Positions 2,653 through 64,000 of a DNA stretch of 64,000 nucleotides are shown here, piece by piece. The stretch is taken from positions 8,246,001-8,310,000 of the forward strand of contig OZ024751.1 in the NCBI GenBank assembly GCA_964016885.1. The letters run 5' to 3'. The DNA is from Eledone cirrhosa. Its lineage: Eukaryota. A program made the translations under genes and the position numbers. Every line of letters starts with the position of its first letter. The first letter of the stretch is position 1. The notes below the pieces were generated by a model. It saw nothing but the letters and a program-made list of their open reading frames with translations, was not told where the DNA came from and did no database searches.

Positions 2653-2696
2653 GGCCTTGATAAGCTTCAACCAAAGCGAAACAAGTCTTGTCGGCT
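2653..2696 (+). ncRNA. hammerhead ribozyme, U3-A8 core variant (array unit 1)
   Basis: ggcc-TTGATAA-gctt caacca aagc-GAAA-caagtcttg-TC-ggct; stem I extends via tgatctcagtaaacagg/cctgtttgctgagatca. Confidence 0.85.
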
Positions 2697-2968
2697 TATC
2701 TCCCCTGTTTGCTGAGATCAAAGTGCGTGAATTTGTCACTACTTTAAAACAATAGCTAACGTTCTTCAAAATGCTTGTAATTAAGCATAAAGTGTATTGC
2801 AAAATACATTATATATACATCCATATGTATATTGCTATTTCAGAGCTCCAATTCTAATTTTTAATTTCTTCCTGACCAACAACCGCTCTGCATAATCAGC
2901 TCCTGATTATTTACTAGATTTCTATAAGAATATAACATCAATGATCTCAGTAAACAGGTGGGGTAGTT

Positions 2969-3012
2969 GGCCTTGATAAGCTTCAACCAAAGCGAAACAA
3001 ATCTTGTCGGCT
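2969..3012 (+). ncRNA. hammerhead ribozyme, U3-A8 variant (array unit 2)
   Basis: Same motif; stem III reads caaatcttg. Confidence 0.85.
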
Positions 3013-3283
3013 TATCTCCCCTGTTTGCTGAGATCAAAGTAGTGAATTTGTCACTACTTTAAAACAATAGCTTACGGTCTTCAAAATGCTTTTAATTCAG
3101 CATAAAGTGTATTGCAAAATACATTATATATACATCCATATATATATTGCTATTTCAGAGCTCCAATTCTAATTTCTAATTTCTGCCTGACCAACAACCG
3201 CTCTGCATAATCAGCTCCTTATTATTTACTAGATTTCTATAAGTATGTAACATCAATGATCTCAGTAAACAGGTGGGGTAGCT

Positions 3284-3327
3284 GGCCTTGATAAGCTTCA
3301 ACCAAAGCGAAACAAGTCTTGTCGGCT
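3284..3327 (+). ncRNA. hammerhead ribozyme, U3-A8 variant (array unit 3)
   Basis: Identical to unit 1. Confidence 0.85.
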
Positions 3328-3651
3328 TATCTCCCCTGTTTGCTGAGATCAAAGTGAGTGAATTTGTCACTACTTTAAAACAATAGCTTACGGTCTTCAA
3401 AATGCTTTTAATTAAGCATAAAGTGTATTGCAAAATACATTATATATACATATATATATATATATATATATAATACATTAACAGAGAAAGCTTTAAGTAA
3501 TACTCCGACCTGCTTTCGTCTTACTCAACAAACATTAGGTTATACCTTAGTTATAATCCCAATTATACGTTTGGGGTGCTAACTATACGTATTTTGCTGA
3601 GACGCAGTTGTATTATTTTATATGATACATAATTAAAATACATCTCTCTTT

Positions 3652-3771
3652 CCAAACGATCGTTTCATTATAAGTTTTCTACAAATTGGGAAAATAATGT
3701 CCAGGTTATGTAAAAGCCTACACATAGTCCGTAGAAATATATGTAGGTGGGCACTTATAAATTATCAGTGG
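3652..3771 (-). ncRNA. hammerhead with about 95-nt stem II, probably inactivated (C3-A8 mismatch); homologue of 51031-51157
   Basis: Minus cca-CTGATAA-tttataagt...acttataat-GAAA-cgatcg-TT-tgg; region 3475-3790 is similar to 50860-51180. Confidence 0.7.
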
Positions 3772-59625: not shown

Positions 59626-61582
59626 TATATTTTATACTAACAAACTAACAAACCGGGCAAGCTTTTCACGAATGCTAGAATGTATGGAACTCTATTGAGA
59701 ATTATGGTCATAAAAGCATCAGAAAGATACATGACAAACTGTGTGCAAATATGATGAACATATAAAACGTTGATTCATCAATATAAACAACACAACATTT
59801 ATTAAACTAGGATTTTTTAAAAAATACAGAATGTATTGTAATTCGTAAAAGTGGCAATAGCAATCATTTCTTTTTTCTAAAAGAATTTGAAATGAAAACA
59901 TGGGGAATATATTCCAGGATTCAACTATATTTGATGGTGCACAGCATGTAAATCGGAGAATTATTTATATGTCCACAGATCAGCTTAATTTAATCGATTG
60001 GCTAATACCCTGTTCAAATCCAATTATGGTAACATACAGCGTATAGTGATGGTTCTTCTATATGAGTGACCCTCTTCTTAAAATGCTTAAGGCAACCGAA
60101 GCATAAGGATGATTTATGTAATTACATTCTGTTGTTGCCAGCTGGCGTATATCACTTGCATCAATGGGTGACGACCATAGGTAATTAACACTTCTAATTA
60201 TTATTAAGAGTAAGTTGAAATTAATTAAAACTTCAAAGAAACCATTATCTAAAATATTGTTCAAACACAACAATTTCATACTTACGTAAATCTATGTAAA
60301 AATACATTTATAATAAAATAGTATAAGCGCTCTTATCTCTCTGATTACAAACTAGGATTAATAGTCTGTATTTATTGAACATGATATCTCGTGTCGACTT
60401 TTCATAAAGGATACTGAACGTTGAAGGAAATTGTTCCCACAGTAACATCAAGAATTATACTTCATCAATGTATCAGATTATCTAAAAAATGAGATGTCTT
60501 CCATATTTTTAACTGAAAGGGAATAAATAATGTAAATCTAATTTTGGTATTAGCATTTAGAATAATTTCCCGATAGCAGAAGTTGCTAGACATAGTATCA
60601 GACGACTTTACATCTTACAAGACAAATGGTAATAATAATATATGATGTAGACATACATGGCTCCTTACCCATTTGTATCAGTAGCTGGTCGATGTATTTT
60701 AATATTTCTAGCATATAGGCTAAAAACCGATACAGCAGATTATATTTGATGTTCGCTATCTCAGACAAACTGTTTTTCATGATATATTGATGAATATCAC
60801 AGCTCCTTGTAAAAGGTGAGTACATTAACTGATAGACTCTATTATTTATCTTCTACTAATATATCTTAAAATTTATCTATGTTGGAGGAAACAAGAGAAA
60901 AACTAAGTTTACGAAATTTCCTCGACGCGATATTTCGGCAATAGCGCAATAGAGCTAATAAAGTAAGTCTAAATAAAAGCAACGCCATATATATCAAGAT
61001 CAACAAACAAAGAGATACATTTTCCAAGAGTATGATCTTTAGCCATCAATGTCACCTCAATATCTTGAAACTGAACATTGTGCAGTAATGCGTTATTTAT
61101 GGCAGACGTTGATAGCAAGACGAGTAAAACAGGACGATAATAAAACTGAGATATCAATCTATATATAACCCCCCGAAAAAAATCCATTACTACCACAATA
61201 ATCAGTATCACCTACCGACGCCATTCCTACAAACGGCGGTGCTATGTACAAAACTGAAGCTATTTTTAACAAAGCTTATCGAATATAGTAAATGGCATCT
61301 TGCTGGTGAGTTTAAATATCGAAATAAAGGAGTTGGGCTGAATGTACCAATTACATATAATTGAAATGTTTCTTTCGTAGTGGGTTTTAAAGGATACCCT
61401 TTTTTCACTCACTCTGGCCCTTTCTCTCTATCGCTTCCCCCTTCCTTCTCAGTATATATGTATTGAGATAGATAAATTTATTATAAATTTATTATAATAA
61501 ATTGAAGTGAAAGCAACTGGTGCGTGTGTTTCTTATTGGCAACATGACCCTCCCAAAGTATAACAATATATATATATATATA

Positions 61583-62502
61583 TATTTATTAAAATAACAG
61601 ATTAAAGTTTAAGCAAAGAATCGCTGCTTTCACCCTTAACGGGATCTTCTGAAACTAACAAAGTCAATCTGTAAACGCAGAACTGGATATTTAAAAAACG
61701 TTGCAACCGGAGGAAGACAGGAAGACAATACTTTGGTTCGTGGAAACGTTCGCTGGCGAAGAACGGGAAAAAACGAATAATACGTCATTAATAGGAGCGG
61801 TGAAAAAACATTTACGCGCAAAAACAGAACCACGTTTATGGTATAATAGAGGTCGTGGACTAATGTTCTCTTAGGTGGTGCATAGAGACGTTCTCTGGCA
61901 ATGAACGAAAAAACGAAGATAATACGTCATATGTGGAGCGTGGAGAACAATAGCACGCAAAGACAGAGATTCATTTGGTCTCCTAGTTAGAATTTTAGTC
62001 TACGACTTCTGCTATACCATTTACGTGGGTTTGTCTTTGCGTGCTATTGTTCTCCACGCTCCACATATGACGTATTATCTTCGTTTTTTCGTTCATTGCC
62101 AGAGAACGTCTCTATGCACCACCTAAGAGAACATTAGTCTACGACCTCTTTTATACTATAAACGTGGTTCTGTCTGTGCGCGTAAATGTTTTTCACTGCT
62201 CCTATTAATGACGTATTATTCGTTTTTTCCCGTTCTTCGCCACGAACGTTTCCACGAACCAAAGTATCGTCTTCCTGTCTTCCTCCAGTTGCAACGTTTT
62301 TTTTAAATATCCACTTCTGCGTTTACAGATTGACTTTGTTAGTTTCAGAAGATCCCGTTAAGAGTGAAAGCAGCGATTCTTTGCTTAAACTTTAATCTGT
62401 TATTTTAATAAATATTTGCTCTACGGTTCTTATATATTTGATATATATTTATCCTTATCGAGCCCTCTTTGGATTTTAGTCTTCAAATTTATTATTATTA
62501 CT
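61583..62502. mobile_element. family I palindrome (arms 61583-61965 / 62032-62415) with U4A HHRs at 61606-61656(-) and 62341-62391(+)
   Basis: Arms of about 383 bp, internal ~139-bp subrepeat (agtctacgac at about 61997 and 62137), (TA)n on both sides. Confidence 0.9.
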
Positions 62503-62536
62503 ATATATATATATATATATATATATATATATAATA

Positions 62537-62722
62537 ATAATTGTTTCTACTTTTGGGACAAGGCCATCAATTACCCAGTACATTACTGGTACTTTATTTT
62601 ATCGACCCCGTAAGGATGAAAGGCAAAGTTAACCTCGGCGGGATTTGAACTCAGACCGTAAATGGAGGACGTAACTATGCTGGAAAGCATGGCGTCCGAC
62701 TCTCTACCGATACTGCCAATCC
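62537..62722 (-). mobile_element. near full-length SINE A
   Basis: Matches the other copies. Confidence 0.88.
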
Positions 62723-62794
62723 ACACACATAATAATAATAATAATAAAATGTGGAAAAGGAGCACACGACCTGGAAAATATATATATATATATG

Positions 62795-64000
62795 AAAATA
62801 GGGGAAAAAAGGATTATTAGGAAGAAAAATATATATTTTTTCCCTTTTATTTTTTTTCTCTTTTTTCTGGGTTAGAAAATGTTTAAAACAAAATATTTTC
62901 CTTGGTGTGAAGTGTTAAGGTATTAGTTAGTTTCTTTATTAATTAACAATGGCATTTATTTATCTATTTATATATAATTGTCTATTACCGGTTTCAGCTT
63001 GTTATGCATTTTCAAAGGGGGGAGTTTGTATTGGTGTAAAATGTTGGTGATGTTGTACATGTTAAGGAAATGGTGAAGACGGAATAATGTTATTTACAAA
63101 CATGGTTTTTGAAGTGAAAAGAAAAAAGAAAAAAAAATGTGTTGGGGAATGTGGAACATGATAAGATAATGGGAAAGTAAAAAAAAACAATATTACTTAC
63201 AGGCATAGTTAATAATATTATTTACGGGCAAAGTTCAAAATGTGTTATTATGGCAAGAGTGCTTAGTTGATCCATGATGGAGGCAAATGGTAGTCTTTGG
63301 TTTGATATGATTTCCCGTTTTAGAGAGTTAATATGCAGGGGGGTAATTCAGGGTGGTCAGGTAGGGGAGAGTGAAATGAGGGGGTAATTCATTTATATAA
63401 GAGAAAGGATTAGGTAGGGTCTTAGAGAGCATAGGAATGTGGTTTTGGTTCATTGTTCGTTCCAATTTTAGTTTAGTCCGAAGTTTAGTCCGTTAAGTAG
63501 AGGTTGGAATTTGTTAATGAAGTATGTTTCCTTATTGGTACGATGGTTGAAAGAAGCGTTGTCTATGAATTTGTAAATGGCGAAAATAGTAAAGGTTGGA
63601 TGTTGGTTAGGTGTACAATTGGCGATATGTTCACTAAAAGCAATCTTTCTGTATCCCTGTATTTTGATTTGTGATCTATGGACGGTCATACGTTGTCGGA
63701 GGCTTTTTTTTCGTCTGTCCTATGTAGTGCTCTTGACAACATGAACAGGTCAAAACATAGATTAGGTTTTCAGATGCACATGTAAATGTTGTCCTTGTTT
63801 AAAATGGAATGTTGAACCTTCTATTAGATGTATGCATATGCCACAGTTGGGCCTTCCGCATTTTGTTACTGTAGGGTTCATTGTGAGGATTTGTTGGATT
63901 TTGGCTTGTGTGAAGATGTTTTTTTATGGATTTAGGTTGTCTTTTGCTCTGTATGATGTTGTGTGTTTGGAGGATTTTGTTCATTATTGGGTCTCTTTTT
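62795..64000 (-). mobile_element. Neptune-like PLE 3' part: linker zinc knuckle, GIY-YIG (63468-64000), pLTR with decayed U3-A8 HHR at 62983-63018
   Basis: SKRQPKSIKKHL..CGRPNCGICIHL..FTCASENLIYVLTCSCCQEHYIGQT..LRQRMTVHRSQI..SEHI..FINKFQPLLN; TTGAAAA-tgc..gct-GAAA-ccgg-TA. Confidence 0.9.

What the first reader, a model, noticed from the sequence alone, without database searches (positions are those of the whole stretch)
2657..63015. Recurrent compensatory C3-G8 to U3-A8 core in several unrelated HHR families
Seen: TTGATAA at 2657, 2973, 3288, 11291(-), 24045 and its mirror, and 51528(-); TTGAAAA at 23474, 52670 and its mirror, 35046(-) and 63009(-). All have stem II and stem III in place, and stem I is intact in most. 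Known: positions 3 and 8 form a Watson-Crick tertiary pair in the active HHR, and U3-A8 is a tolerated but uncommon variant. Inference: the double change, fixed across copies and families, indicates selection for catalysis and a lineage unusually rich in this variant.
Basis: partly seen in the sequence, partly recalled or inferred. Interest (0 to 1): 0.75.

Follow-up and report, generated by a model that had tools for sequence, protein, structure and literature searches.

The report
Recurrently swapped base pair in hammerheads
These motifs are copies of predicted self-cutting hammerhead RNAs in Penelope-type jumping genes and their non-coding passengers; the unusual U-A pair is already known, makes up about a fifth of this genome's hammerheads, and likely arose several times, but cutting is untested and one thriving family has also fixed a change predicted to cripple the core.

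Summary
All twelve cited motifs are there and are type I hammerhead folds with U3-A8; four are imperfect. They belong to high-copy repeats: pseudo-LTRs of Penelope-like elements (23474, 52591/52670, 35052, 63015) and non-coding retrozyme-like repeats. Copy counts mostly reflect amplification; the stronger evidence is by family: 25 C3G8, 10 U3A8, none mismatched, and in one retrozyme clan a single origin of U3A8 is rejected (p-AU 5e-5). Corrections: the families are partly related (2657 and 51534 are one clan; the four Penelope sites likely share one origin); U3A8 is about 21% of hammerheads in an unbiased 1.18 Mb sample, below the share reported for Schistosoma Penelope elements; and fixation does not prove catalysis, since the 35052 family (at least 4,046 copies) has fixed A13C too. 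U3-A8 is published for Penelope hammerheads and for natural ribozymes generally, and this scan noted it before in this and other genomes. No cleavage or RNA data. A known kind, with a useful natural mutant series.

The parts
2583..3463 (+). Tandem array, 2.8 units of 315-316 nt, no ORF; retrozyme-like family A
   Evidence: TRF 96%; 626 exact genome hits to the hammerhead pattern, 97 of 100 listed U3A8, 3 G3A8; circular unit folds at z -6.2 against 40 shuffles
2653..2696 (+). Type I hammerhead, U3 2657, A8 2662, predicted cut after C 2692 (GUC)
2969..3012 (+). Second unit's hammerhead, U3 2973
3284..3327 (+). Third unit's hammerhead, U3 3288
11137..11407 (-). Diverged fragment of a 592-nt tandem retrozyme-like family; hammerhead U3 11297, predicted cut after C 11214; stem I decayed in this copy
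   Evidence: local alignment to the L105 unit; L105, L042, L166 copies have a 5-pair stem I
23434..23644 (+). 3' pseudo-LTR stub of Penelope-like family PLE-a ending in (TA)n; hammerhead 23471-23506, U3 23474, GUA triplet
   Evidence: same motif about 1 kb behind a GIY-YIG domain in L152; 775-aa RT-EN open frames in the family
23687..24138 (.). Palindromic insertion of family B (219-nt arms, 100%); hammerheads U3 24045(+) and 23780(-), GUC
   Evidence: 40 best genome matches 99-100% identical, 1,101 candidates; no ORF seen in 1.6 kb upstream of six copies
34852..35085 (-). 3' stub of Penelope-like family PLE-b; hammerhead-like motif U3 35052 with A13C fixed in the family
   Evidence: 4,046 exact pattern hits, 99 of 100 listed with C13; about 1.0-1.3 kb behind a GIY-YIG domain in 9 loci; extent
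51377..51768 (-). Member of the same retrozyme clan as family A; hammerhead U3 51534, predicted cut after C 51502, stem I of 6-8 pairs, C10.1-A11.1 mismatch
52434..52770 (.). Head-to-head inverted pair of PLE-a stubs; hammerheads U3 52670(+) and 52591(-)
62986..63015 (-). Degenerate U3A8 hammerhead of a Penelope-like copy (PLE-e)
   Evidence: lies about 470 nt behind the GIY-YIG remnant
63486..63780 (-). Frameshifted GIY-YIG endonuclease remnant of PLE-e, preceded by the linker zinc-finger motif
   Evidence: tblastn, sequence, tree
5754..7048 (.). Comparison element: inverted Penelope-like insertion PLE-f with GIY-YIG (6235-6549, -) and canonical C3G8 hammerheads at 5852(-) and 6950(+)
   Evidence: (PF01541, E 2e-7)

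Best explanation
The cited motifs are U3-A8 type I hammerhead folds carried by high-copy Penelope-like retroelements and non-coding retrozyme-like repeats, and the U3-A8 pair likely arose several times from C3-G8 (or back) because selection on the source elements keeps positions 3 and 8 paired, most likely for self-cleavage. Mechanism (inferred from known hammerhead, Penelope and retrozyme biology): read-through transcripts of tandem or pseudo-LTR copies fold two hammerheads into a dimer through the short palindromic stem III, cleave after the NUH triplet to give unit-length or circular RNA, and a Penelope RT/GIY-YIG protein copies it into (TA)n sites, leaving tandem and mirror-image insertions. 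U3-A8 is two transitions from C3-G8, which may explain why it, and not G3-C8, is the alternative used. Genomic copies then decay neutrally. In the five related Penelope families the motif has a weak stem I, and in one of them A13C, so cleavage there is probably slow or lost. Shown here: sequences, counts, element anatomy, family states, trees. Inferred: transcription, dimer folding, cleavage, mobilisation in trans, direction of each switch.
For: Genome-wide pattern N3-UGA-N-N8-AG-N(8-24)-CGAAAC-N(2-10)-GUH, both strands / reversed control: U3A8 28,732 / 3,600, C3G8 14,108 / 274, U3G8 414 / 443, C3A8 445 / 386, purine3-pyrimidine8 699 / 1,037. Unbiased 118 x 10 kb sample: strict 80 CG, 11 UA, 3 UG, 1 CA; relaxed 120, 32, 4, 4 with 8 hits in the reversed control. 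Families seen in at least two loci: 25 C3G8, 13 U3A8 of which 10 credible, 0 U3G8, 0 C3A8. Retrozyme clan tree with positions 3, 7, 8 removed: 4 changes (bootstrap 3-5; well-supported branches force 2), one U3A8 clade rejected at p-AU 4.9e-5. GIY-YIG tree: U3A8 in two deeply separate Penelope groups. U3A8, stem II and the ACCGGU palindrome are kept in PLE-a, -b, -d although their RT-EN proteins are 57-58% identical. In 14 hand-picked rows 14 of 14 keep pair 3-8 (9 UA, 5 CG) and all four stem II pairs show double changes. Natural U3-A8 covariation and earlier in vitro activity are stated in PMC3088659 section 8; U3-A8 in S. mansoni Penelope elements in PMC4209133.
Against: No cleavage or expression data. 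A13C is fixed in PLE-b in two subfamilies 90% identical to each other (12 of 12 and 12 of 12; 99 of 100), so a successful element can fix a core change. U3A8 families have shorter contiguous stem I than C3G8 families (median 3.5 against 6; families are not independent). Predicted monomer folds of the PLE-a, -b, -e motifs do not form the hammerhead. In a full pairwise scan of one type III hammerhead only the G3-C8 swap was rescued and all other changes in that region had low activity (PMC9901934 passage). The clan tree has few well-supported branches, short alignments and possibly recombinant units; 162 of 500 label shuffles need as few changes, so the states are not clustered at all. The 14-row count used rows I chose.
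Confidence: 0.78

Rival explanations
1. The hammerhead fold in these elements is kept for a non-catalytic job (RNA dimerisation through the palindrome, a recognition or priming signal for the Penelope RT), and cleavage is dispensable; U3-A8 marks relaxed ribozymes.
For: A13C fixed in a family of at least 4,046 copies with long RT-EN frames (693 aa in L288); stem I of 2-4 mostly A-U pairs in PLE-a to -e; low in vitro activity of minimal Penelope hammerheads (PMC4209133); function of hammerheads in EN+ Penelope elements called unclear, and Naiads reported to proliferate without them (10.1101/2021.04.23.441226 passage).
Against: Strict 3-8 pairing through several switches is expected of the active tertiary fold; the retrozyme families keep long stems, the GUC triplet and the tandem layout that is known to self-cleave (PMC7229834 passages). 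The effect of A13C is recalled from general hammerhead mutagenesis and was not found in the paper library.
Confidence: 0.15
2. U3-A8 arose once (or drifted by A/T-biased mutation in one ancestor) and spread by amplification and exchange of the hammerhead module among elements; the apparent recurrence is founder effect plus recombination.
For: One family (PLE-a) supplies 60 of the first 100 U3A8 hits; PLE-a to -e lie on one side of a 97/99 branch; retrozyme units rearrange freely; the genome is A/T-rich.
Against: Stem II and III sequences differ between U3A8 families and resemble those of C3G8 sisters (family B and L327; clan A and L175/L240); one clade rejected in the clan; mutation bias alone would leave mismatched families, and none was seen among 35 credible families.
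Confidence: 0.06
3. The motifs are chance matches in A/T-rich DNA.
For: TTGAAAA and GAAA are common in such DNA; the reversed control for the U3A8 pattern gave 3,600 hits.
Against: 0.2 hits per shuffled window; hundreds to thousands of near-identical copies; fixed position behind Penelope endonuclease domains; stem covariation.
Confidence: 0.01

Closest known systems
U3-A8 minimal hammerheads of Cercyon Penelope-like elements in Schistosoma mansoni (Cervera and De la Pena 2014, PMC4209133; parts 1-2 of 4 read)
   Same: Type I hammerhead in Penelope pseudo-LTRs, U3-A8 covariation, palindromic short helix III, inverted pairs 100-700 nt apart, many sequence families.
   Different: Here about 28,000 pattern hits rather than about 1,300, but a smaller share of all hammerheads; also found in non-coding tandem repeats; stem II is short (4-7 pairs) without the extra base after A9 in most families; one family adds A13C.
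Metazoan non-LTR retrozymes (Cervera and De la Pena 2020, PMC7229834, passages; Li, Clavereau and Pollet 2026, 10.64898/2026.07.22.740005, parts 1-2 of 5)
   Same: Tandem non-coding units of about 315 nt with one type I hammerhead each, strongly self-paired as a circle, proposed to be non-autonomous Penelope derivatives.
   Different: The U3-A8 core and repeated switching within a clan are not mentioned in what I read (no hit for U3-A8 or covariation in PMC7229834); circular RNA not shown here; the 592-nt unit exceeds the 170-400 nt quoted for invertebrates.
Natural hammerhead core variants (Perreault et al. 2011, PMC3088659, section 8 read)
   Same: C3-G8 covarying to U3-A8 in several natural ribozymes; U10.1-U11.1 mismatch and weak stem III tolerated.
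   Different: No family-level or phylogenetic analysis of the switch in that section; A13C not described there.
EN+ Penelope-like elements with a linker zinc finger, Neptune/Nematis type (Craig et al. 2021, 10.1101/2021.04.23.441226, passages)
   Same: RT with DKG motif, CX4CX2C linker, C-terminal GIY-YIG, pseudo-LTRs, inverted truncated copies, (TA)n targets.
   Different: Clade not fixed here by a reference tree; the hammerhead core state per family is not treated in the passages seen.

Membership tests
Type I hammerhead ribozyme | Core U4 G5 A6, A9, G12 A13 A14, A15.1-U16.1, H17 around three helices, helix I open | tested here: met
   8 of 12 sites pass a strict descriptor; 11297 and 51534 keep all core bases but have a stem defect; 35052 fails A13; 63015 lacks stems
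Type I hammerhead ribozyme | Watson-Crick pair between positions 3 and 8 | tested here: met
   U3-A8 in all 12; mismatched cores 859 against 42,840 matched in one pattern
Type I hammerhead ribozyme | Match to a curated Rfam hammerhead model above its gathering score | tested here: not met
   best HH9 25.4 bits against 52, only for family A; expected for short-helix-III variants
Type I hammerhead ribozyme | Loop 1-loop 2 tertiary contact | not tested
   not analysed
Type I hammerhead ribozyme | Site-specific self-cleavage | not testable with these tools
   needs an assay
EN+ Penelope-like element (PLE-a, -b, -e) | RT followed by C-terminal GIY-YIG with CCHH motif | tested here: met
   775-aa frame in L326; PF00078 and PF01541 on L288; DKG and linker cysteines seen in the translations
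EN+ Penelope-like element (PLE-a, -b, -e) | Hammerhead in the pseudo-LTR; partial tandem and inverted truncated copies; microsatellite target | tested here: met
   motif 0.5-1.3 kb behind the endonuclease; mirrors and (TA)n ends
Neptune clade of Penelope-like elements | Placement in an RT tree with reference elements | not tested
   only the linker zinc-finger motif, shared with Nematis, was seen
Non-LTR retrozyme (families A, 51534, 592-nt) | Tandem non-coding units with one type I hammerhead per unit | tested here: met
   A; 592-nt: L105 period 592; 51534 is a single unit here, assigned by homology to the clan
Non-LTR retrozyme (families A, 51534, 592-nt) | Highly self-paired unit | tested here: met
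   family A circle -82.6 kcal/mol, z -6.2; other families not folded whole
Non-LTR retrozyme (families A, 51534, 592-nt) | Accumulates as unit-length linear and circular RNA | not testable with these tools
   needs RNA data from the organism
Non-LTR retrozyme (family B) | Short tandem unit | tested here: not met
   family B shares over 1.6 kb upstream and was seen as inverted pairs, not short tandems; no ORF found

The most novel reading that the evidence does not exclude
This genome holds a natural mutant series that separates the fold of Penelope hammerheads from their chemistry: retrozymes that depend on cleavage swap C3-G8 and U3-A8 repeatedly but never tolerate a mismatch, whereas one clade of autonomous Penelope elements has let its U3-A8 hammerhead shrink and, in PLE-b, fix A13C while amplifying to thousands of copies. 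Either Penelope hammerheads work there as non-catalytic RNA signals, or U3-A8 with C13 is an undescribed active core.
Probability: 0.3. Interest if true: 0.65.

Novelty: new member of a known kind. Interest (0 to 1): 0.38.

Why it matters
The variant is known, so the finding does not add a new ribozyme. Its value is as test material. The role of hammerheads in Penelope elements is still called unclear in the literature read, and laboratory scans disagree on whether U3-A8 is active. Here sister elements differ at the 3-8 pair in otherwise related contexts, and a successful autonomous family carries A13C, so a handful of cleavage assays would show which surroundings license U3-A8 and whether Penelope transposition needs cleavage at all. 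It also warns that descriptors fixed on CUGANGA miss about a fifth of the hammerheads in this genome.

Tried and rejected
Rfam scan: dominated by microsatellite matches to miRNA models, no hammerhead above threshold. Repeat finder swamped by (TA)n. RNA evidence: no RNA holder listed for the PLE-a stub; laying contigs of four coded runs on family A showed only repeat variation, with no listed difference at positions 2657 or 2662, and cannot speak to expression. Idea that the GATGAAT family is a C3G8/U3G8/U3A8 intermediate series: of 100 listed copies 89 U3A8, 8 U3G8, 3 C3A8, 0 C3G8, scattered singly, read as decay of an old family. Idea that family A is the pseudo-LTR of an autonomous element: the GIY-YIG next to it in L026 belongs to PLE-b, into which A has inserted; rejected. 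Idea that U3 pairs with A17 and blocks cleavage, by analogy with C3-G17 (PMC3884650 passage): U3A8 families have C17 more often (5 of 10 against 2 of 25, not independent), but 5 of 10 have A17 and folding was uninformative (script stopped before the C3G8 controls); left open. Copy-level counts as a selection test: flank change in 54 PLE-a copies is 23 of 2,268 sites, so 0.15-0.5% mismatched cores is no depletion. Apparent G3-U8 family: read as part of a long stem II, not a core. First clan tree lost two C3G8 rows to filters and held rearranged copies; redone. Three U3A8 clusters with poor stems and six clusters of other states (A3A8, A3C8, A3G8, G3C8, U3U8; 2-4 hits each) were set aside as probable false folds. 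Przybilski and Hammann 2007 and one recalled PubMed id were not held; only the title of the former was seen, in a reference list. Literature searches for U3-A8, C3U/G8A and A13C with hammerhead returned only PMC4209133 as relevant; a search with octopus returned nothing on core variants. Supplements were not read; those of PMC4209133 (alignments of metazoan motifs) may already list U3-A8 in more lineages.

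
Full report
Observation. All ten listed heptamers and both mirrors are present. A strict type I descriptor accepts 8 U3A8 and 3 C3G8 sites in the window, against 0.2 hits per shuffle. Four cited sites are imperfect: 11297 (long stem II loop, decayed stem I), 51534 (C10.1-A11.1), 35052 (A13C) and 63015 (weak stems I and II). A relaxed scan shows 9 canonical C3G8 hammerheads in the same window beside 10 U3A8. The 12 cited sites come from 8 insertions of 7 families.

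What carries them. The window lies in a 3.0 Gb genome. Family A (2583-3463) is a 315-316 nt non-coding tandem repeat with 626 exact pattern hits, 97 of 100 listed U3A8, and a strongly self-paired circular fold (z -6.2): a non-LTR retrozyme by anatomy. 11297 is an old fragment of a 592-nt tandem family. 51534 is homologous to family A and to several C3G8 families in its flanks. Family B (23687-24138) is a young element over 1.6 kb long in which I found no ORF in six copies. The TTGAAAA sites are 3' pseudo-LTR stubs of Penelope-like elements: the 23474/52670 motif lies about 1 kb behind a GIY-YIG domain in a family with many intact 775-aa RT-EN frames; the 35052 motif lies 1.0-1.3 kb behind a related domain in 9 loci; 63015 lies behind a remnant at 63780-63486. 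Mirrors and (TA)n ends are the described Penelope insertion pattern (10.1101/2021.04.23.441226, passages).

With one pattern for all four states, both strands give U3A8 28,732, C3G8 14,108, U3G8 414 and C3A8 445; reversed controls 3,600, 274, 443 and 386 (some sites count twice). Purine3-pyrimidine8 cores are not above control (699 against 1,037). The mismatched hits listed are largely scattered copies of the same families. By my count of the listings PLE-a supplies 60 of 100 U3A8, 20 of 100 C3A8 and 6 of 100 U3G8 rows, that is about 0.5% and 0.15% single mutants, of the same order as the 1.0% change per site in its flank (23 of 2,268). Copy counts therefore show inheritance, not selection.

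Family-level evidence. Clustering 681 descriptor hits from all loci held at that point, which are enriched for U3A8 by my searches, gave 25 C3G8 families, 13 U3A8 (10 credible) and none with U3G8 or C3A8 as majority. In an 18-row GIY-YIG tree the five U3A8 Penelope families of the window's type lie on one side of a 97/99 branch, opposite the C3G8 element at 5754-7048, so they probably share one origin; another U3A8 family sits in a separate group (100/100), so at least two changes are needed (six rows have no assigned hammerhead, and that family rests on one locus). PLE-a, -b and -d proteins are 57-58% identical yet keep U3A8, stem II and the palindrome. In the retrozyme clan holding 2657 and 51534, a 15-row tree without positions 3, 7 and 8 needs 4 changes (bootstrap 3-5, 2 forced by well-supported branches) and rejects one U3A8 clade (p-AU 4.9e-5). 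An earlier 24-row version gave 2 changes with only 1 forced, so the number of switches is soft. In 14 chosen rows the 3-8 pair is kept 14 times and stem II covaries.

Is the lineage unusually rich? In 118 evenly placed 10-kb stretches the strict descriptor gave 80 C3G8, 11 U3A8, 3 U3G8, 1 C3A8 and the relaxed one 120, 32, 4, 4, a U3A8 share of 21% (13-31% by bootstrap over loci). For S. mansoni about 1,300 U3-A8 against about 2,000 C3-G8 minimal motifs were reported, canonical ones not counted (PMC4209133). The variant is numerous here because hammerheads are, and because PLE-a amplified; its share is not exceptional on this one comparison.

Against selection for catalysis everywhere. The 35052 family has at least 4,046 exact copies, 99 of 100 listed with C13, in two subfamilies 90% identical. 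A13 is a conserved core base; that A13C cripples cleavage is recalled, not found in the library. U3A8 families also have shorter stem I, and monomers of the Penelope motifs are not predicted to fold as hammerheads. The literature is split: natural U3-A8 covariation with earlier in vitro activity (PMC3088659 section 8) against a pairwise scan in which only G3-C8 was rescued (PMC9901934 passage). No RNA or cleavage data could be brought in.

Mechanism. Most likely the source elements are transcribed, fold dimeric hammerheads through the palindromic stem III, cleave to unit length, and are copied by Penelope RT-endonuclease into (TA)n. Selection on source elements keeps 3-8 paired, and U3-A8 is reached by two transitions. 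Pairing, anatomy and trees are shown; expression, cleavage and direction of change are inferred. For the Penelope clade a non-catalytic role is the main rival.

Verdict. Real and correctly read as compensatory, but a published variant in known element classes (PMC4209133, PMC3088659, PMC7229834, 10.64898/2026.07.22.740005), also noted earlier by this scan. Searches found no report of repeated switching within a clan or of A13C fixation, within the library's limits and without supplements. Interest 0.38.

Noticed in passing
genome-wide, from L031-L148: About 127 hammerhead folds per Mb (97-162), which extrapolates to roughly 300,000-480,000 in the genome; PMC7229834 gives up to 120,000 retrozyme copies for the much larger axolotl genome (heading seen).
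   Followed up: partly
window 35023-35052 (-): PLE-b hammerhead-like motif with A13C fixed across two subfamilies while stem II shows a compensatory change relative to PLE-a.
   Followed up: yes
window 23500-23600 (+): In PLE-a the predicted cleavage triplet overlaps a possible 5' splice site, with a pyrimidine tract and AG about 95 nt downstream; splicing would remove the 3' half of the hammerhead. No test was possible.
   Followed up: no
window 6910-6960 (+) and its mirror near 5850-5890: In the C3G8 element PLE-f a second copy of the core's 5' half, in U3A8 form and followed by the same four stem II bases, lies 40 nt upstream of the real core; perhaps a duplication relic.
   Followed up: no
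window 943, 3961, 4610/4925, 5852/6950, 28777, 50453, 57838: Nine canonical C3G8 hammerheads not mentioned in the finding; several have U10.1-U11.1 or long stem II loops.
   Followed up: partly
window 15481-18100, 31258-32124, 41907-44600: Decayed non-LTR retrotransposon fragments with RT (PF00078) and a weak APE-type endonuclease match.
   Followed up: no
window 44936-45268 (+): Weak C2H2 zinc-finger match, below the Pfam cut-off.
   Followed up: no
G000:C1:5738326-5752444: About 30 tandem units of a 467-nt C3G8 retrozyme-like repeat ending in an inverted copy.
   Followed up: no
G000:C1:348863669-348949714 and C1:375635330-375643747: Local segmental or tandem duplications have multiplied single C3A8 mutant copies, inflating the mismatch count.
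   Followed up: partly
L223, L226, L228, L289, L290: Family B copies lie next to RT or GIY-YIG fragments of other Penelope groups; whether B is the long end of one of them was not resolved.
   Followed up: partly
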